From positions 800,001-864,000 of the forward strand of contig CM000429.1 of assembly GCA_000165345.1 (NCBI GenBank): 64,000 nt of DNA, read 5' to 3'. The notes below the pieces were generated by a model. It ran no database searches and was not told the origin of the DNA. It saw only the letters and a list, made by a program, of their open reading frames with translations. A program made the translations under genes and the position numbers. Of the stretch, positions 42,824-50,081 are shown piece by piece (within the stretch, counting starts at the first letter, position 1; each line of letters begins with the position of its first letter).

Positions 42824-42975
42824 TTAATTCTGCTTTATGTAAGCAGTAAGAAAGGGAAGAACTCACATATACTAAAGGTGTTTATACATATATTTATATA
42901 TGCATATTTGCTGAACCTACTTTCAATTAACTATTCAATACAGAGTCATAAGGGAATAGTTTTGAATTGAAGATA

Positions 42976-45900
42976 ATGAAAAAGAGGCTTTTAAAGCCGG
43001 TAGAATCAGAAGAAGAGTTGGATGAGGAACTACCTCACCCTGTTGGAGAAGAAAGTAGCGACGATTTTGGTACAAAAAAAAAGCTAATTAAAAATAAGTT
43101 TGGAGCATTTAGTGAAAATGTGGACCAGATTTCTCAGAAAAAGGAGAAAAGGAGAGGTGGAACAGGAGTTCTTGGTACTTTAATAGACTCAATTAGGGAA
43201 AAAGATACCCAAAAAATGGATGATTCAGAATTTGAGAGTGTTTCAGAAAAAGATGAACAGTTTAAAACTTCCAAAGTAAAGAGATTGTCTAAAAAAAGAA
43301 AGAAGAAGGGTGCAGATTCTATTGATGTTTCCAATTTACTATGTTCTTTGGACAATACTTCTAAACAGAAATCCAAGAGTAAATCTAATAGAGATTTAGA
43401 CACTATGTTTGAATCATTCAGTATGCCTAGCTCTGATTCCGAGAGCAATTTTGGTTCTAAGATGGATGACTTTGAAAATGATGTTATAGATAGAAAGGTT
43501 GATAAAGAAATTCATGATAACACAAGTGAAGAAGATGATGAGTTTTTAAATTTGACAGAAATAGAAATGGCACTGAGAAAATGTGTAAAGAATGATTATA
43601 ATCCATCTTTAGAACTTAATGAGTGGTTACCTACTCAATGCATTGATGTGAGGTCAGAAGTTGCACATCAAATGGATGATGATGTAATAATTAACGAGAT
43701 TACTGAAAAACATGAATTTTTCTATTCTCAATGGATAGAACAAATTGGTTATCTTTCTTCTCTAACAAAAGGATTTACAAGAAATATTCAGGAATGCTTT
43801 GTTAGAGAAGGACAAATTTCATCTATTTCCAATATTAAAGAAAGTAATCCTGAACTTTTATTAGACCCAGAAGATAAAATCTTGATAACAGTACAAAACT
43901 CGGATGCATGTGTCATTTTAAACAGATTAGTTAATATAGCAAATTCCCAAGAAAAGCTAATCATTGAAATGAGTAAAGAAACTGGAATATCTAATATTGA
44001 TGAAAAGGATTCCACCATTCGACTTAAGTATGGAATTATTTCTTTAAAAGCTAGGAGTAAGCTTTGGTGGTTTTGTAGAATGGCTGAGCATTGTGGATTA
44101 GTTGGAAGAGAAGGAAATAGTATGATTAAGTACTATGTTTTGGACAAATCTAGGAAGAAAACATCTAACTCAATATTTTCTACAAATGCTGATATAATTT
44201 CCTCGATTGATCCCAGTATGGAACTTTTTAATAAAAATAACTCAGAAAGCAATATGGATGATGATAATGATATGACTGGGGATGAATGTGGAGAAAATCA
44301 TGCTGAGACAGAACAAATTAGTGAAATGGATTCAAAATGGTTGGATATTTCATCTATTAAAGTTTCAAATAAGGTTAGACCTTGGGAAAGAAGAGCTAAG
44401 AAAGTTGAAACAAAGTCCCAAAATGTTGAAGAGAGTATTGCAAATTGTTCCAAAAAGGAATTGTTTAAGTTTATGCTAAAAAATATTGGACCTAGACCTA
44501 TTTGGACAAACTCTGGTGCCATTGGAGATGTGAACAACCATAATAAATTTAATATAGAAATAGAGCCACCTACTAATTTATCACTTCGGGAGCAGGGACA
44601 AATGAAAATTAAATGGTTACAAATGAAGAATCAAGCTGAGAAACTGGCAACACATCACTTTAAGATAATGGACCCAGAAACTAAAGATCTGGATCATGAT
44701 AATCTAAAATACTGGTGTAAACTCTTTAAAGTCAATTTACTTTTCCCTCCTTGCAAATCTGATAATATAAGAAGAGTGGGTAATAATGACACCATTAATT
44801 CAAACATTCTTTTGGAAAAGAATCCAGAAATAGTAGAAGTAATGAAAGATGTGAAAAACAATCAATACGTGAATAATCAGAAAATAAGTCCCTTAAGTTA
44901 TTTTGAAAACATTACTGAAAATAAAAGAAACTCTCTACCTTTGGACGTGGAATTTATAAGTGAGTCAGATGGGGAGGCTATAGAGGAAATTGACCAAGGA
45001 TATGACCATGCCCCAGAAGTAGAAGAAAAAAAAGGGGAAGAAAAGGAGGAAGAGGGAGAAGAGGAAGTGGAAGAAGAAGAAGAACAAGAAGAAGAAGAGG
45101 AAAAGGATGAAAAAGATGTTAGAGGAGCCGATGATATGGATCAAGTTAATGCAAACCATTACAATGAGGGAGAGAACAAACTGGCCGATGTTAATGAATA
45201 TCATTCAGCTGAAGAAATTTTCGATCAAGAAATAGATGAGAAGACAGAATCTGATAAAGAGGGAAATATAAAGGAAAGGGAAGCCAATGAAAACTCAGAG
45301 GAAGAAACCAACTTGAAAATGAGAATAGAGGCACACAAAAGGCTTAAAGCAATAAGAAAGAAAAGAATGAAGCTCAAGAGAAAAATGATGGAGAGATACG
45401 GACACTTATTTGAAAATGAAGCAGAGGAAAGTGATGACGATGGGATCAAAATATTAAGGAGAGGGATTGGCGGAGATTATAGTGATGATGATGATGATGA
45501 TGATGACATAGACTGGGATGAGCTGAGCGGTTTTTCTGATTTTATTGATGATAACAATTACGAAAATGGGGAGCTTGATGGAGATGCAATTCAAGCTCAC
45601 TTGAAACATATGAAGGAAATAGAAGAAAAACAATACAGACAATTGTTCACCTTGGAGGGTATTAAGGAAAGAAAAAATAAAGTATATGGGTTTGCTGCCG
45701 GTCAGGATGATGGGATTGAAGGTGAAACTAGATTGGAGAAGAAGAAGAACGAATTACTCTTTAACTCTGCCTTTTTTGATGATGATGTTATTAGTGAGTT
45801 TTGGACAGATGAAGAGGAGTTGGACGATTATGAGGAAGAAATTGATGAGAGAAATTTGACGGAAATGCTTGGATTGAACTATGAAGAATGGCAAAATAGC

Positions 45901-46455
45901 TTACCAAAAAAAACGAATTCTTCTGATGAATCGTTGAATGAACAAAGAAAACTCAAATATAACATTTTAAAAGAATCTCTGATTAAAGAAGCTTCTGGAA
46001 GTATCAATATTCTCAAACAAAGACTCAAATCCATTCAAACTAAGCTTAGTATAGAAGAAAACATTAGTCCAAATGAAAAGAATCAATTACAAACAAAATA
46101 TATTGAATGTATGGAAAAACTAAAAAAGCTTTTACATTCAATTCATTCTGCCTGCAACAAGTGTATCTACGAAAATCCACAATTCTTTGACCATATTGAT
46201 ATATATGAGTACATTCAGAGACGTGAAGAATCCAGAAGTAAAAAAAAATTCAAGGCTAAAAACACTGAAGACAAAATCAAACAAAAATGCAAATATCAAA
46301 ACAAGTATCTCAGAGAAAATGTAAATCCGTTAAATAAGATCGGAAAGACAGGATCTGACTCAGAAGATGATATAATTAATCGAAAAAGGGTGCAAAAGAA
46401 CGGAAAGAATATAGTAAATGTTAAAGGAGGGAGGTTTAAAATCTCAAAGAAGTAA
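42976..46455 (+). CDS. Large acidic (Glu/Asp-rich) hypothetical protein, probably nuclear
   Basis: Long ORF with poly-E (EEEVEEEEEQEEEEEKDEKD), poly-D (DDDDDDDD) and Lys-rich stretches. No family recognised. The ORF-track start at 42967 is a TTG; the first ATG is at 42976. Confidence 0.55.
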   Translation: MKKRLLKPVESEEELDEELPHPVGEESSDDFGTKKKLIKNKFGAFSENVDQISQKKEKRRGGTGVLGTLIDSIREKDTQKMDDSEFESVSEKDEQFKTSKVKRLSKKRKKKGADSIDVSNLLCSLDNTSKQKSKSKSNRDLDTMFESFSMPSSDSESNFGSKMDDFENDVIDRKVDKEIHDNTSEEDDEFLNLTEIEMALRKCVKNDYNPSLELNEWLPTQCIDVRSEVAHQMDDDVIINEITEKHEFFYSQWIEQIGYLSSLTKGFTRNIQECFVREGQISSISNIKESNPELLLDPEDKILITVQNSDACVILNRLVNIANSQEKLIIEMSKETGISNIDEKDSTIRLKYGIISLKARSKLWWFCRMAEHCGLVGREGNSMIKYYVLDKSRKKTSNSIFSTNADIISSIDPSMELFNKNNSESNMDDDNDMTGDECGENHAETEQISEMDSKWLDISSIKVSNKVRPWERRAKKVETKSQNVEESIANCSKKELFKFMLKNIGPRPIWTNSGAIGDVNNHNKFNIEIEPPTNLSLREQGQMKIKWLQMKNQAEKLATHHFKIMDPETKDLDHDNLKYWCKLFKVNLLFPPCKSDNIRRVGNNDTINSNILLEKNPEIVEVMKDVKNNQYVNNQKISPLSYFENITENKRNSLPLDVEFISESDGEAIEEIDQGYDHAPEVEEKKGEEKEEEGEEEVEEEEEQEEEEEKDEKDVRGADDMDQVNANHYNEGENKLADVNEYHSAEEIFDQEIDEKTESDKEGNIKEREANENSEEETNLKMRIEAHKRLKAIRKKRMKLKRKMMERYGHLFENEAEESDDDGIKILRRGIGGDYSDDDDDDDDIDWDELSGFSDFIDDNNYENGELDGDAIQAHLKHMKEIEEKQYRQLFTLEGIKERKNKVYGFAAGQDDGIEGETRLEKKKNELLFNSAFFDDDVISEFWTDEEELDDYEEEIDERNLTEMLGLNYEEWQNSLPKKTNSSDESLNEQRKLKYNILKESLIKEASGSINILKQRLKSIQTKLSIEENISPNEKNQLQTKYIECMEKLKKLLHSIHSACNKCIYENPQFFDHIDIYEYIQRREESRSKKKFKAKNTEDKIKQKCKYQNKYLRENVNPLNKIGKTGSDSEDDIINRKRVQKNGKNIVNVKGGRFKISKK

Positions 46456-46614
46456 AACCTTCTAGGGAAACCCACTCTAATGTCTTATAAATATTAAATA
46501 GTGCTTAATGTTACTTAATTTTAAAAATCTTACTAAATCTAACATTTATTTTCTTCAATCTCTGTATTTAAACCTACCTTTTATTCCCCCGTTATTTTAA
46601 GATATTTCTAAATA

Positions 46615-46648
46615 TTTTTGGCGGTAACCCCTGTCCACATGCATGCAT
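46615..46648 (+). promoter_or_regulatory. TTTTTGGCGGTAACC + CATGCATGCA cluster in a region lacking an annotated downstream start
   Basis: E2F-like plus AP2-like motifs 75 bp upstream of the ATG at 46723. Confidence 0.4.
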
Positions 46649-47065
46649 TAATAATTATTAAAAATGAATCAAAAATGTAGAAATTAAGAGAATTTGTATG
46701 GTTGTTGGTAATATGCGGATAGATGTTTGGTGGAAGAAGAAGAGTTAATGGAGGAGCTCCAGCTCCATTATTATCAAATACAGAACAATCTACATGCCAA
46801 ATAACTAGTAAGTTAATGATAAATGTAGTCAATAAAATAATTAATAATAAATAGGTTTGGTTTACGTAGTTACATCAATTATATCATTGGTTTGTTTAAT
46901 AGTTCCAGTTTTTTTAGTAAGTAAATATACTGCTTGTTGGATATTTGAACTTTAATAATTTAGGCAACTACATGCAGTGACCATAATACATTATGGTTTG
47001 TACAGGTAAGCATAAAGAACATTTTTAAAAGTAACAAAACATTCTGATATTTATTTACTTGTATT

Positions 47066-47413
47066 TTGAAGGTTGTTTTGGGATTAGATTTTGTTTTTAT
47101 TTTTGTATTTATGTATTTGGGTTTATTACCAAATGGGACTGAAAGTGAGTTCAGCAGGTACATTGGGACAGGGGTTGTTATATTGGCGATTCAGTGTATA
47201 ATATTGGCATTTGGTATTTTTGTTTTTATCTCACTACTTTACTATTTACTTAGTAATGGAGACGAGTGTAGAAGTGAATCCATTCTTAATATCACTTTAA
47301 CTTCTATCAATTTATTACACTCAACAATAACAACTTTCACTTCAGTAAAGCTATTATTGAAACTGTTCACATCAATAGCAACCCAGTATAAGACATATGA
47401 TAAGATAGCTTAG
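47066..47413 (+). CDS. Small two-TM membrane protein ORF; probably the 3' exon of a multi-exon gene whose 5' exons lie in 46.7-47.0 kb
   Basis: The hydrophobic ORF (…LGLLPNGTESEFSRYIGTGVVILAIQCIILAFGIFVFISLLYYLL…) starts at a TTG in the track; the first internal ATG is at MYLGLL. Three GTAAG[TC] donors (46808, 46912, 47006) and several poly-T/AG acceptors lie just upstream. An E2F-like plus TGCATGCA promoter cluster sits at 46615-46648. Confidence 0.3.
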   Translation: MKVVLGLDFVFIFVFMYLGLLPNGTESEFSRYIGTGVVILAIQCIILAFGIFVFISLLYYLLSNGDECRSESILNITLTSINLLHSTITTFTSVKLLLKLFTSIATQYKTYDKIA

Positions 47414-47535
47414 TGTAGGATGTTAGAGGATAAATTAGGAATAACTAATATTTTCTAGTAAAGAATTTTCTAGTAAAGAAAAAAATAACTAAAGAGTAAA
47501 CCCCCTAATAAAAATCAGAAAAGTATGGCAGAAAC

Positions 47536-49980
47536 TTAACTTGAATTGACTTTTTTAGCAAAATTCTTCCATTTATTTTCTTGAGAACTTTTGAATTTTT
47601 GGTATTCCTTTCCTAGTCTGTTTTTTGCTTGTTTGCTATCCTCGTTAACCTTCTTCTTATATAATTTTAGATGTTCCTTTGAAAGACCTTTTCTGTCTAC
47701 CATAAAGAACCTCTTTTTTACGGGGTATCCTGCCTTATTCATCATCTCATGTAATGTAAATGCGAGCTTCCTGTGTCTGGATACAAACTTTTGGAATGTA
47801 GGTAACTTTGAAAGATAACCTGATAGTTCACTTTCTAAAATACTTCTAATAGATTTAATCTTTGGATCATAATCATTCAAAGAGAGGTATTTAAGAAGAC
47901 CATATTTGATAGTTTTGCTTCCAAGAGCATTCCTAAGGCTATTGTATTCATTAACTGCAAGATCAATTTGGGAGCTAATTCTCTCAAGCTCCTCACTGCT
48001 GTAATCTCTACTATATTTGCTTGGAAGAAGTTGCAAAATAATTCTAGTCTTTAATGCAAGGAATACAATCTTCTTTGCTGAATCAACCTTGAAGTGCAAA
48101 AGCTTAATAGACTTAACGTATTTTTGAACGAACAAAAGAGCTCTTCTCTTGGCAGCTGTATTGTGGAATTTAAATATGTCAGAAACTTCCTTTATTGTAA
48201 CTTCTCTTGCTTTCTTCATAATATTTAACATTTCAATAGTTTTAGCTTCGACCTTGGCGATACGCTTGAGTACTCTATCTGTTTGGATGAAGTATCTTTG
48301 ATATGGACATGGGGCAGCACATCCAATAGAGACTTGGAACATATCAACAAGAGGAAGAAGTATACCTCTAAGTTGATTAGCAGAATCTTCATTTCTAAAT
48401 GTCTCGGCGTGTAATAATGGAGAGTTGTCTGATTGCGGACTGTTTTGTGTTCTTTCCATAAATTCTTCATGAGAAAACTCATCAGCTCCTACAGATGGTT
48501 CCTTTTCTTCAAGAAGAGATCTATTAAATGAGTTTTCTTCTTCTTGCTCAGGGGCAATTTCAGAACCTGAGTCGCTTGGATCAGAACTTCTTTCAGCTTC
48601 ATTTAAAGTTTGTTGTGGGTCATCAGTTTCATTTTCATTTTCATTTTCTGATTCAGATTCGGTACCAATAATAGGACTTTCTAACTTAGGAGATGTTGAA
48701 GCTTCATTATTTTCAGAATGTTGGGATTCTTTTACTGCATCATTGTCAATACTGCTAACAGATGAAGGAATGGTAACAATCTGAGGTTCAACTTGACCTT
48801 TCACTTCTTCATCAGATGACTGCTCTTCTTGACTAACCTGATTACCTGCAGAAATTGTATTTTCAGATGGAACTACGGCAGTTTTTTCTTTCTCAGATAC
48901 AGTGTTCTCCGAAAGATTACTCATTTCATCTTCAACAGACTTGCTAGATCTCGATTTCTCTGAAAATGGAGGTTTATATAGGTCTGAATCTTCAACTTCC
49001 TCGGATTTTTCCAAAATAATTCCTTCTGATTCTTCCTCAGTGAGGGGTTCTGGTTCTTTGAGAGATTTATCCAAGCTACTTCTAGATTCCTCTACAGTAG
49101 CGTCTTTCTTTGAGGATTCAAAATTTGATGTAATTGGTATAGTGGTTGATCTTTCTCTCTCATTTTCTCTTGGCAGACTTAACTCTTTTGGGACGAATGT
49201 CAACTCATCATATTGTTGGTCTTCCTGGATAGAAGATATTGACTGTTCTTTTTCTCCACTTCTAGAAGTTTCATCGTATTTCAATGTAGGAGATTCAATT
49301 CTTTCTGATTCATATTCACCGGCAAAGCTCTCAGAAGATTTTCTGTTTTTTCCTTTAGCACTTTCATGTATCTTTCTTTGCTTTCTCAAAAGAGCTAACG
49401 CATCTTCTACTGTGTAATTCGGATCTTCCAAAAGCATTATTGACTCTTCCTGGTTCTTTGGACTGTACTCTGACTGGAATTTTTCTTCATGTTCATCCAA
49501 TAATTTCTCGTAATCAGTACTAGATTTTGATTTCTCAACTAATGGTGAGATTGAACCCTCTGATGCTTTGGAAATTGAATACTCAGAAAGTGCTGGGAAA
49601 GTAGGGCTTGCGCTTCTGTCCTGCTTTTCATCCAAATTCTCAGTAAAAAGACCAGATTTCTCCTCCAAGACAGATTGATCACTTTTTGAGGCATCAACGA
49701 AAGAAGGTACATTTCTAGAACTTGCACTTTTGGATGACTCCAATATTGAAGAATCAGATGTCTTTTCAATAGGTGCATCATTCAAAGAACCATCGATCAT
49801 AGTTCGTTCAGGAAATAAAGGAGAACTACTAGATTCCGCACTATTATCCTTGGATTGTTCACTCAAATCATATTTGCTTAATGATACCGTACCTTCAGGC
49901 AATAATGAACTTTCTGAATGAACACCCAAGAAAATGAGGAAAAACCCCAAAATAAATATTTGAAGCTTTCCCGAGATCAT
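47536..49980 (-). CDS. Secreted Ser/Glu-rich low-complexity hypothetical protein
   Basis: Signal peptide MISGKLQIFILGFFLIFLGVHSES; the track start at 49992 is a TTG and the ATG is at 49980. Long acidic Ser/Glu-rich region. The C-terminal ~300 aa are basic and ordered (…CAAPCPYQRYF…). Confidence 0.55.
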   Translation of the reverse strand: MISGKLQIFILGFFLIFLGVHSESSLLPEGTVSLSKYDLSEQSKDNSAESSSSPLFPERTMIDGSLNDAPIEKTSDSSILESSKSASSRNVPSFVDASKSDQSVLEEKSGLFTENLDEKQDRSASPTFPALSEYSISKASEGSISPLVEKSKSSTDYEKLLDEHEEKFQSEYSPKNQEESIMLLEDPNYTVEDALALLRKQRKIHESAKGKNRKSSESFAGEYESERIESPTLKYDETSRSGEKEQSISSIQEDQQYDELTFVPKELSLPRENERERSTTIPITSNFESSKKDATVEESRSSLDKSLKEPEPLTEEESEGIILEKSEEVEDSDLYKPPFSEKSRSSKSVEDEMSNLSENTVSEKEKTAVVPSENTISAGNQVSQEEQSSDEEVKGQVEPQIVTIPSSVSSIDNDAVKESQHSENNEASTSPKLESPIIGTESESENENENETDDPQQTLNEAERSSDPSDSGSEIAPEQEEENSFNRSLLEEKEPSVGADEFSHEEFMERTQNSPQSDNSPLLHAETFRNEDSANQLRGILLPLVDMFQVSIGCAAPCPYQRYFIQTDRVLKRIAKVEAKTIEMLNIMKKAREVTIKEVSDIFKFHNTAAKRRALLFVQKYVKSIKLLHFKVDSAKKIVFLALKTRIILQLLPSKYSRDYSSEELERISSQIDLAVNEYNSLRNALGSKTIKYGLLKYLSLNDYDPKIKSIRSILESELSGYLSKLPTFQKFVSRHRKLAFTLHEMMNKAGYPVKKRFFMVDRKGLSKEHLKLYKKKVNEDSKQAKNRLGKEYQKFKSSQENKWKNFAKKVNSS

Positions 49981-50081
49981 TTTAACTCCCAAAAAAAAGC
50001 TCTACAAATTTTCTTTAACTGAAACATAAAAAGAAATAAACATAAGTAGACTTATAATTTATTTGTAGATCTAGATTTATG

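What the first reader, a model, noticed from the sequence alone, without database searches (positions are those of the whole stretch)
46600..47413. Probable unannotated multi-exon small membrane-protein gene in an apparently empty convergent spacer
The 1.08-kb gap between two convergent genes contains an E2F-like + TGCATGCA promoter cluster (46615-46648). An ATG follows at 46723, then three GTAAG[TC] donors within 200 bp (46808, 46912, 47006) and several poly-T/AG acceptors (about 46847, 46900, 46963, 47070). A 115-codon hydrophobic ORF (47066-47413) has no ATG at its 5' end. Candidate exons translate without stops: 46723-46807; 46850-46911, giving SLVYVVTSIISLVCLIVPVFL, which looks like a TM helix; and 46964-47005. 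I could not find a phase-consistent chain into the last ORF, so the exact model is unresolved. Three consensus donors in 200 bp of AT-rich DNA is well above chance.
Basis: partly seen in the sequence, partly recalled or inferred. Interest (0 to 1): 0.5.

Follow-up and report, generated by a model that had tools for sequence, protein, structure and literature searches.

The report
Known four-exon Cryptosporidium membrane-protein gene (cgd1_3770)
The "empty" spacer holds a real four-exon gene for a 176-residue membrane protein, but it is the already catalogued Cryptosporidium parvum gene cgd1_3770, whose function nobody has studied.

Summary
The window is C. parvum chromosome 1. Its 176-aa product is identical, residue for residue, to deposited C. 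parvum proteins QOY43244.1 (IOWA-ATCC) and WRK30777.1 (cpbgf_1003770). The 2004 Iowa II model (cgd1_3770, XP_628188.1) is a 100-aa single-exon truncation, and 136-aa and 171-aa models also circulate.

Six Cryptosporidium species keep exon lengths of 85/62/42/342 nt while intron lengths vary. Substitutions concentrate at third codon positions. One species has no intron 3, so its genome reads straight across the predicted exon 3-exon 4 junction. A 176-aa homolog from a Siedleckia (blastogregarine) transcriptome aligns end to end, including an exon-1-encoded GGxPAPLL motif.

Published data show the transcript in the top quartile in oocysts and at zero 2-6 h after infection. The protein is predicted to have four membrane helices and matches no Pfam, NCBIfam or PDB sequence family. 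I infer, at low confidence, a non-enzymatic tetraspan scaffold or accessory subunit of the sporozoite/oocyst stage.

The parts
46617..46628 (+). E2F-like upstream motif TTTGGCGGTAAC, about 100 nt before the ATG
   Evidence: Sequence read. It matches 11 of 12 positions of the published C. parvum motif 4, TTTGGCGGGAAV (PMC3734150). TTTGGCGG occurs 5 times in the window against 0.48 expected. It is conserved at the same offset in C. ubiquitum, L002 and L003.
46640..46647 (+). AP2_1 motif TGCATGCA, about 80 nt before the ATG
   Evidence: 7 occurrences against 0.84 expected. The block TCCACATGCATGCATTA is conserved in L002 and L003, with one G-to-A change in C. ubiquitum. It is the published ApiAP2 (cgd2_3490) binding site (PMC3734150).
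46723..46807 (+). Exon 1 (85 nt), encoding MFGGRRRVNGGAPAPLLSNTEQSTCQIT plus the first base of Ser29
   Evidence: Length is identical in six species. Codon-position differences are 20/14/48. It encodes the GGxPAPLL motif, which is invariant in Siedleckia and in a marine-sample homolog.
46808..46854 (+). Intron 1 (47 nt, GTAAGT...TAG, 15% GC)
   Evidence: Length is 47-97 nt in the orthologs and identity is 0.53-0.71, against 0.86-0.88 for exon 1. Reading through it hits a stop codon.
46855..46916 (+). Exon 2 (62 nt), encoding membrane helix 1 (S)LVYVVTSIISLVCLIVPVFL
   Evidence: Codon-position differences are 29/3/42.
46917..46963 (+). Intron 2 (47 nt, GTAAGT...TAG, 23% GC)
   Evidence: Length is 46-57 nt in the orthologs and identity is 0.49-0.60.
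46964..47005 (+). Exon 3 (42 nt), encoding ATTCSDHNTLWFVQ, which includes the invariant Cys53
47006..47071 (+). Intron 3 (66 nt, GTAAGC...AAG, 21% GC)
   Evidence: It is absent in L003, where TGGTTTGTGCAG|GTAGTCTTGGGA is contiguous genomic DNA encoding WFVQ|VVLG. That confirms this junction.
47072..47413 (+). Exon 4 (342 nt including the TAG stop at 47411-47413), encoding membrane helices 2-4
   Evidence: The published cgd1_3770 qRT-PCR primers map at 47144-47387. Codon-position differences are 110/68/264.
47416..47505 (+). Probable 3' UTR / shared terminator region. It holds two conserved blocks, TAGGATGTTAGAGGATAAATTAGG (47416-47439) and AGAGTAAACCCCC (47493-47505).
   Evidence: Alignment of the 3' flanks. 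The first block is conserved in C. ubiquitum and L002. The second is also conserved in L003. The function is inferred only.
42967..46455 (+). Upstream neighbour cgd1_3760 (coordinates are ORF limits; the true start was not determined)
   Evidence: The cgd1_3760 primers map at 44931-45139. An ortholog of about 1,150 aa lies upstream in C. ubiquitum, L002, L003 and C. xiaoi.
47536..49992 (-). Convergent downstream neighbour cgd1_3780 (coordinates are ORF limits). Its stop lies 122 nt from the cgd1_3770 stop.
   Evidence: The cgd1_3780 primers map at 49831-49953. A syntenic minus-strand gene is present in all five orthologous loci.

Best explanation
Window 46617-47505 is the C. parvum chromosome 1 gene cgd1_3770 (CPATCC_0035490 / cpbgf_1003770).

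Shown:
- A plus-strand gene of four exons (85, 62, 42 and 342 nt) is separated by three short AT-rich GT-AG introns.
- It encodes a 176-aa protein that is conserved across the genus.

Inferred from the sequence and a moderate-confidence model:
- The protein is a four-helix (tetraspan) integral membrane protein with both ends in the cytosol.
- The N-terminal tail is basic and carries an invariant GGxPAPLL motif.
- A Cys sits in each short exoplasmic loop (C53 and C129).
- Helix 4 is unusually polar and almost invariant.

Inferred from published motif work and expression tables:
- Transcription starts in the 267-nt spacer after cgd1_3760, from a compact promoter with an E2F-like box and a TGCATGCA ApiAP2 site.
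- The mRNA accumulates late and is stored in oocysts/sporozoites. It is absent during early intracellular growth.

Most likely mode of action (inference, low confidence): a non-enzymatic tetraspan that organises or accompanies other membrane proteins in the sporozoite/oocyst stage. Small tetraspans such as MS4A proteins, sarcospan and the MARVEL proteins work this way. The cytosolic PAPLL tail would serve as a sorting or partner-binding site.
For: Gene model:
- The open 531-nt chain has GT-AG introns.
- Its product is identical to QOY43244.1 and WRK30777.1.
- Exon lengths are identical in six species, while intron lengths vary and are not multiples of three.
- Exon identity is 0.76-0.88 against 0.49-0.71 for introns.
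- Third-position bias holds in exons 1-3 alone (69/24/112) and in exon 4 (110/68/264).
- Intron 3 is absent in L003, so the junction is contiguous there.
- The Siedleckia nematoides transcript-derived protein P0017 is also 176 aa and is colinear from residue 5 to 173. E is 4e-5 against 1.84 billion proteins.
- A second distant homolog, P0021, shares GGGPAPLL.
- Baptista et al. 2022 state that all introns of the IOWA-ATCC annotation have RNA-seq support (PMC8744675).

Expression:
- In the oocyst microarray, cgd1_3770 is in the top quartile (signal 79.0), while cgd1_3760 reads 0.29 (PMC3542205 Table S1).
- By qRT-PCR it is 0 at 2 h and 6 h, and 1e-8 to 4.5e-7 at 12-72 h (PMC3305300).

Promoter:
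- Both motifs are enriched in the window.
- Both are conserved at -100 and -80 in four species.
- Both are published C. parvum upstream motifs.

Topology:
- Three strong hydrophobic segments plus a fourth helix; the basic residues lie at the N and C termini.
- The AF2 model has four helices, pLDDT 66 and pTM 0.52.
Against: Gene model:
- I could not inspect any splice-junction reads directly.
- Other public annotations give 100, 136 and 171 aa, so minor isoforms cannot be excluded.

Function:
- Nothing here tests function.
- No Pfam, NCBIfam or PDB sequence match was found.
- Helix 4 is only weakly hydrophobic in C. parvum (maximum Kyte-Doolittle 1.21), so a three-TM topology is possible.
- No protein-level evidence was found.
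- qRT-PCR levels in culture are 100-1000 times below those of the neighbouring genes.
- The promoter block is not conserved in C. xiaoi or C. serpentis.
Confidence: 0.95

Rival explanations
1. Only the last exon is coding, as in the original single-exon 100-aa cgd1_3770 model that starts at MYLGLLPNG. The upstream 'exons' would then be 5' UTR or promoter that happens to be open.
For: This model is deposited for Iowa II (XP_628188.1), C. hominis UdeA01 (CUV04332.1) and C. bovis (P0020). The published expression assays probe only exon 4.
Against: Exons 1-3 show coding-type third-position bias (69/24/112) and fixed lengths in six species. The exon 3-4 junction is contiguous in L003. Transcript-derived Siedleckia and marine homologs align with the exon-1 and exon-2 residues, including GGxPAPLL and Cys53. 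The 100-aa product would begin in the middle of membrane helix 2.
Confidence: 0.02
2. The main product is one of the other annotated splice forms. The 136-aa form joins exon 1 to an AG 16 nt inside exon 4. The 171-aa form uses an acceptor 15 nt inside exon 2.
For: Both are deposited (CPCDC_1g3770 and CHM_1g3770; CPHLJ_1g3770). Both keep the reading frame, and the AGs they need are present in C. parvum.
Against: The alternative AG is present in only 2 of 6 species for the 171-aa form and 3 of 6 for the 136-aa form. The 136-aa form removes helix 1, the invariant Cys53 and part of helix 2, all of which are under purifying selection. Nine independent annotations across the species give 176 aa.
Confidence: 0.03
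3. The gene is the same, but the protein oligomerises into a channel or pore rather than acting as a scaffold. The conserved polar helix 4 (ILNITLTSINLLHSTITTFTS) would line the pore.
Against: The matches are to a generic four-helix bundle at 6-13% identity, from a model with pLDDT 66. Helix 4 is not polar in the Siedleckia or marine homologs. No channel family signature was found.
Confidence: 0.15
4. There is no gene. The donor cluster and open frames are a chance feature of AT-rich intergenic DNA.
For: GTAAG is common in AT-rich DNA, with 83 copies across both strands of the window.
Against: This is the only such cluster in the window, with 0.22 expected. All the conservation, homology and expression evidence above also argues against it.
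Confidence: 0.005

Closest known systems
cgd1_3770 and its orthologs: C. parvum CPATCC_0035490 / cpbgf_1003770, C. hominis ChUKH1_11785, C. tyzzeri CTYZ_00003975, C. ubiquitum cubi_00372, C. meleagridis CmeUKMEL1_01570, C. xiaoi RS030_91502 and C. serpentis ACR3K2_36290
   Same: The protein is identical to the two C. parvum entries and 55-98% identical to the other species. Length (176 aa), four-exon structure and position between the cgd1_3760 and cgd1_3780 orthologs are all the same.
   Different: Nothing differs; this is that gene. The Iowa II reference model (100 aa) and the 136-aa and 171-aa models differ from the structure that the comparative evidence supports.
Siedleckia nematoides (blastogregarine) transcript protein GHVU01137094.1.p1, and an unnamed 177-aa protein from run ERR1719215
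   Same: Same length and the same four-helix layout. The GGxPAPLL tail, loop-1 Cys, G111, E132 and C-terminal QxK are invariant.
   Different: Only 21-24% identical. Helix 4 is hydrophobic rather than polar. Siedleckia begins MGNC, a possible acylation site that Cryptosporidium lacks. Nothing is known about the function of either protein.
Small animal tetraspans: MS4A family (CD20, FceRI-beta), sarcospan, and MARVEL proteins (synaptophysin, synaptogyrin)
   Different: No detectable sequence similarity (no Pfam match at E<=1), and 7-11% identity in the structural alignments. The fold match is no better than to designed helical bundles. The exoplasmic loops here are much shorter, at about 7-10 residues.
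Cryptosporidium spliceosomal introns as described in the re-annotations (Isaza 2015; Baptista 2022)
   Same: GT-AG boundaries, short length and 15-23% GC. The published values are a mean of 84-99 nt and 22% GC.
   Different: Three introns in a 691-nt gene is unusual for C. parvum. About 89% of its genes have no intron, and intron-containing genes average 2.6 exons. The introns here, at 47-66 nt, are shorter than the mean.

Membership tests
cgd1_3770 orthogroup (Cryptosporidium 176-aa transmembrane protein) | Protein sequence identity with deposited members | tested here: met
   The spliced product is found by exact look-up as QOY43244.1 / WRK30777.1. It is 98% identical to C. tyzzeri, 86% to C. 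ubiquitum, 65% to C. xiaoi and 55% to C. serpentis.
cgd1_3770 orthogroup (Cryptosporidium 176-aa transmembrane protein) | Syntenic position between the cgd1_3760 and cgd1_3780 orthologs | tested here: met
   Published primers for cgd1_3760, 3770 and 3780 map to the three window genes. The same plus/plus/minus arrangement is seen in L001, L002, L003 and L005. L004 has the downstream neighbour, and its contig ends upstream.
cgd1_3770 orthogroup (Cryptosporidium 176-aa transmembrane protein) | Four exons of 85/62/42/342 nt | tested here: met
   L003 has exons 3 and 4 fused (intron 3 absent), with the same coding length.
Spliceosomal GT-AG introns | GT donor, AG acceptor, and removal restores one open frame | tested here: met
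   Reading through the introns meets stop codons.
Spliceosomal GT-AG introns | Junctions observed in RNA | not testable with these tools
   No read data were available. Indirect support comes from two sources. The IOWA-ATCC annotation carrying this exact model is stated to have 100% RNA-seq-supported introns (PMC8744675). The exon 3-4 junction is contiguous in L003.
MS4A / CD20-like family (Pfam PF04103) | Significant match to the family profile | tested here: not met
   No Pfam match at E<=1 for any of nine family members, apart from a sub-threshold DUF7027 hit.
MS4A / CD20-like family (Pfam PF04103) | Four-TM fold with cytosolic termini | tested here: inconclusive
MARVEL domain (Pfam PF01284) | Significant match to the family profile | tested here: not met
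Tetraspanin (Pfam PF00335) | Large second extracellular loop with a CCG motif | tested here: not met
   The loop between helices 3 and 4 is about 7-10 residues (SNGDECRSES) and has a single Cys and no CCG. There is no Pfam match.
DUF7027 (Pfam PF22954) | Score above the gathering cut-off (27 bits) | tested here: not met
   The best score is 12.4 bits at E 0.15, and only 3 of 9 members give any hit.
C. parvum E2F-like / AP2_1 regulated promoters (Oberstaller 2013) | Motifs TTTGGCGGGAAV and BGCATGCAH in the upstream region | tested here: met
   TTTGGCGGTAAC lies at -106 and ATGCATGCAT at -84. Both are conserved in four species.
C. parvum E2F-like / AP2_1 regulated promoters (Oberstaller 2013) | Motifs bound by, and required for, the transcription factors | not testable with these tools
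   This needs reporter mutagenesis or ChIP / CUT&RUN.

The most novel reading that the evidence does not exclude
cgd1_3770 would be the Cryptosporidium member of an undescribed tetraspan family about 176 aa long. The family would predate the split between Cryptosporidium and the blastogregarines. An invariant cytosolic GGxPAPLL tail, one Cys in each exoplasmic loop and a C-terminal QxK would define it. Its role would be specific to the transmissive (oocyst/sporozoite) stage, for example sorting a partner protein to, or gating, a sporozoite membrane compartment. It would not be merely a lineage-restricted copy of a known tetraspan family.
Probability: 0.3. Interest if true: 0.35.

Novelty: already known. 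Interest (0 to 1): 0.15.

Why it matters
The gene itself is not a discovery. It has been in databases for years, and current C. parvum annotations already carry the exact model.

The modest value lies elsewhere:
- It shows that sequence reading alone located a real, intron-rich small gene, which is rare in a genome where about 89% of genes have no introns.
- Public records still hold four incompatible models for this gene (100, 136, 171 and 176 aa). The comparative evidence here clearly favours 176 aa.
- The protein belongs to an uncharacterised family that extends to a blastogregarine and a marine sequence and has a strikingly invariant N-terminal motif.
- Its mRNA is abundant in oocysts, so it is a cheap candidate for tagging or knockout by groups studying sporozoite membranes.

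Tried and rejected
Searches that found nothing significant:
- Pfam, NCBIfam and PDB sequence searches.
- Rfam and tRNA scans of the whole window, which gave no RNA gene that could explain the region.
- Full-text literature searches for cgd1_3770 and six ortholog locus tags: no paper mentions them in the main text.
- Supplement searches of the lncRNA, AP2-F and oocyst/intracellular RNA-seq papers: no hit. The CDPK5, 2026 sporozoite proteome and polycistron papers have no supplements held as text.

Structure:
- The first prediction, from seven near-identical sequences, was unusable (pLDDT 49).
- A more diverse alignment gave pLDDT 66.
- The AlphaFold-database fold library was unavailable.

Tool refusals and misses:
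- The look-up of encoding contigs holds no genomic locus for the Siedleckia protein, because it comes from a transcriptome.

Considered and rejected:
- Minus-strand ORFs 46608-46832 and 46960-47163 are not coding. The substitution pattern follows the plus-strand frame.
- P0016, a 2,393-aa protein with ten short hits, looks like a low-complexity artefact.
- My first check of the 136-aa model used the wrong acceptor position. I corrected it by reading the printed exon-4 starts: the AG is at positions 15-16.

Full report
**1. What is in the sequence**

- GGCGG is at 46620, inside TTTGGCGGTAAC. TGCATGCA is at 46640.
- ATG is at 46723.
- GTAAG donors are at 46808, 46917 and 47006.
- The 115-codon ORF 47066-47413 is listed.
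- The flanking ORFs end at 46455 (plus strand) and 47536 (minus strand), which leaves a 1,080-nt gap.
- This is the only place in the 64-kb window, on either strand, with three GTAAG within 204 nt. The Poisson expectation is 0.22 such clusters per window.
- TGCATGCA (7 found, 0.84 expected) and TTTGGCGG (5 found, 0.48 expected) are both strongly enriched in the window.

**2.

A phase-consistent chain exists:

| Feature | Coordinates | Length |
|---|---|---|
| Exon 1 | 46723-46807 | 85 nt |
| Intron 1 | 46808-46854 | 47 nt |
| Exon 2 | 46855-46916 | 62 nt |
| Intron 2 | 46917-46963 | 47 nt |
| Exon 3 | 46964-47005 | 42 nt |
| Intron 3 | 47006-47071 | 66 nt |
| Exon 4 (with stop) | 47072-47413 | 342 nt |

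All three introns are GT-AG and 15-23% GC. The exons total 531 nt, giving 176 codons plus a stop. Reading through any intron runs into stop codons.

**3. It is already annotated**

- A protein search returned Cryptosporidium proteins only.
- An exact-sequence look-up found my 176-aa product in NCBI as QOY43244.1 (CPATCC_000013 / CPATCC_0035490, C. parvum IOWA-ATCC) and WRK30777.1 (cpbgf_1003770).
- The same cluster holds 176-aa proteins from C. hominis, C. meleagridis, C. tyzzeri and chipmunk genotype I. C. ubiquitum, C. xiaoi and C. serpentis also have 176-aa orthologs.
- The 2004 Iowa II entry (EAK88284.1 / XP_628188.1 / Q5CS79) is a 100-aa truncation that starts at an internal Met of exon 4. 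Deposited 136-aa and 171-aa models use other acceptors.
- The published qRT-PCR primers for cgd1_3720, 3740, 3760, 3770, 3780 and 3800 all map in the window, in order. The cgd1_3770 pair lies at 47144-47387 in exon 4.

The window is therefore C. parvum chromosome 1. The "empty spacer" is cgd1_3770.

**4. Independent support for the 176-aa model**

I fetched five orthologous loci: C. ubiquitum (L001), two unnamed Cryptosporidium assemblies (L002, L003), C. serpentis (L004) and C. xiaoi (L005). I reconstructed or solved the exon chains for each.

- All five give 176 aa with exon lengths 85/62/42/342.
- Intron lengths vary: 47-97 nt, 46-57 nt and 0-72 nt. They are not constrained to multiples of three.
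- Against C. parvum, exon identity is 0.76-0.88 and intron identity is 0.49-0.71.
- Differences by codon position are 69/24/112 in exons 1-3 and 110/68/264 in exon 4. These pairwise counts share branches of the tree, so the chi-square value is only indicative.
- L003 has no intron 3. Its genome reads TGGTTTGTGCAG|GTAGTCTTGGGA, encoding WFVQ|VVLG, which is exactly the predicted exon 3-exon 4 join.
- The acceptors needed by the 171-aa and 136-aa models are present in only 2 of 6 and 3 of 6 species.
- Baptista et al. 2022 state that the introns of the IOWA-ATCC annotation, which carries this model, are 100% RNA-seq supported (PMC8744675). I could not inspect reads myself.

**5. Reach of the family**

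An exhaustive profile search of 1.84 billion representative proteins found two kinds of hit:

- Cryptosporidium proteins.
- One distant full-length match, P0017 (E 4e-5). It comes from the Siedleckia nematoides (blastogregarine) transcriptome and is also 176 aa, with 22-24% identity.

A further profile search added P0021, a 177-aa protein from an unspliced 900-nt contig of run ERR1719215.

Positions invariant in all six aligned sequences are G10, G11, P13-A14-P15-L16-L17, C53, V65, F70, F76, G111, E132, Q168 and K170. The GGxPAPLL motif is encoded by exon 1 and C53 by exon 3, so this result alone rules out the single-exon model.

**6. What the protein looks like**

- No Pfam, NCBIfam or PDB sequence match was found. 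The only hit is DUF7027 at E 0.15-0.66, far below its cut-off.
- Hydropathy gives three strong membrane segments and a weaker, polar fourth helix. Basic residues concentrate in the N-terminal tail and the C-terminal tail.
- That pattern fits an N-in/C-in four-helix topology with C53 and C129 in the two exoplasmic loops. This is an inference.
- AlphaFold2 with the diverse alignment gives four helices (19-48, 56-81, 87-123, 130-172), with pLDDT 66 and pTM 0.52.
- The fold class is therefore "tetraspan", and no family can be assigned.

**7. Expression and promoter**

- In Zhang et al. 2012 (Agilent oocyst array, cRNA labelling, probes on the 100-aa model), cgd1_3770 is in L4, the top quartile, with signal 79.0. 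Neighbour cgd1_3760 is unexpressed at 0.29 (PMC3542205).
- In Mauzy et al. 2012, qRT-PCR gives 0 at 2 h and 6 h, and 1e-8 to 4.5e-7 from 12 to 72 h. That is far below the neighbouring genes (PMC3305300).
- The upstream block TTTTGGCGG[T/C]AA...TCCACAT[G/A]CATGCATTA lies at about -100 to -80 in C. parvum, C. ubiquitum, L002 and L003. It is not present in C. xiaoi or C. serpentis.
- Both elements are published over-represented C. parvum upstream motifs. TGCATGCA is the binding site of ApiAP2 cgd2_3490, the ortholog of the Plasmodium sporozoite regulator, which peaks at 72 h (PMC3734150).
- A late-transcribed mRNA stored in oocysts/sporozoites is the simplest reading. This is an inference.

**8. 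Mechanism and rivals**

- Best supported (inference, low confidence): a non-enzymatic tetraspan that organises or accompanies other membrane proteins in the transmissive stage. The invariant PAPLL tail would act as a sorting or docking site.
- Main functional rival: an oligomeric channel lined by the conserved polar helix 4.
- Structural rivals: the 100-aa, 136-aa and 171-aa models. The conservation data disfavour all three.
- "No gene" is excluded.

**9. Verdict**

- Its interpretation is right about the kind of gene and wrong about it being unannotated.
- Novelty: already known.
- Residual interest: the inconsistent public models, the intron-rich structure in an intron-poor genome (about 89% of genes lack introns; PMC4637869), and an uncharacterised family with a sharply conserved motif.

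Noticed in passing
L003:2947-3330 (compare window 47006-47071): One Cryptosporidium assembly (Logan SRR31860986, with GC-richer coding sequence) lacks intron 3 of this gene entirely but keeps introns 1 and 2. This is a clean presence/absence polymorphism for an intron within the genus. The direction (loss or gain) was not resolved, although C. serpentis and C. xiaoi both have the intron, which suggests loss.
   Followed up: partly
window 47416-47439 and 47493-47505: Two blocks lie in the 122-nt spacer between the convergent stops of cgd1_3770 and cgd1_3780: TAGGATGTTAGAGGATAAATTAGG and AGAGTAAACCCCC. They are better conserved across 3-4 species than the introns are. They may be 3'-UTR or polyadenylation/termination elements shared by the two genes.
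   Followed up: partly
window 47451-47480: A perfect 15-nt tandem duplication (TTTTCTAGTAAAGAA, two copies) sits in the 3' spacer of C. parvum. C. ubiquitum and L002 have a single copy-like stretch.
   Followed up: no
window 46723-47413; proteins P0003, P0010, P0012, P0013, P0014, P0020: Public databases hold four incompatible protein models for this one gene (100, 136, 171 and 176 aa), spread across C. parvum, C. hominis and C. bovis assemblies. The RefSeq Iowa II entry is still the 100-aa truncation.
   Followed up: yes
P0017 (Siedleckia nematoides) N terminus: The blastogregarine homolog begins MGNC, which looks like an N-myristoylation/palmitoylation signal. The Cryptosporidium proteins begin MFGG or MVLG and lack it.
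   Followed up: no
window 45455-45520: The upstream gene cgd1_3760 contains a run of GAT codons (poly-Asp) inside a generally acidic, Glu/Asp/Lys-rich region. It has no Pfam domain. The neighbouring 818-aa cgd1_3780 also has none.
   Followed up: no
window 7389, 18677, 22079, 41412, 50294, 57510 (TGCATGCA); 5981, 10059, 32889, 37241 (TTTGGCGG): Every other copy of the two promoter motifs in the window is an exact match, at counts roughly ten times the shuffled expectation. They probably mark other promoters. I did not check their positions relative to gene starts.
   Followed up: no
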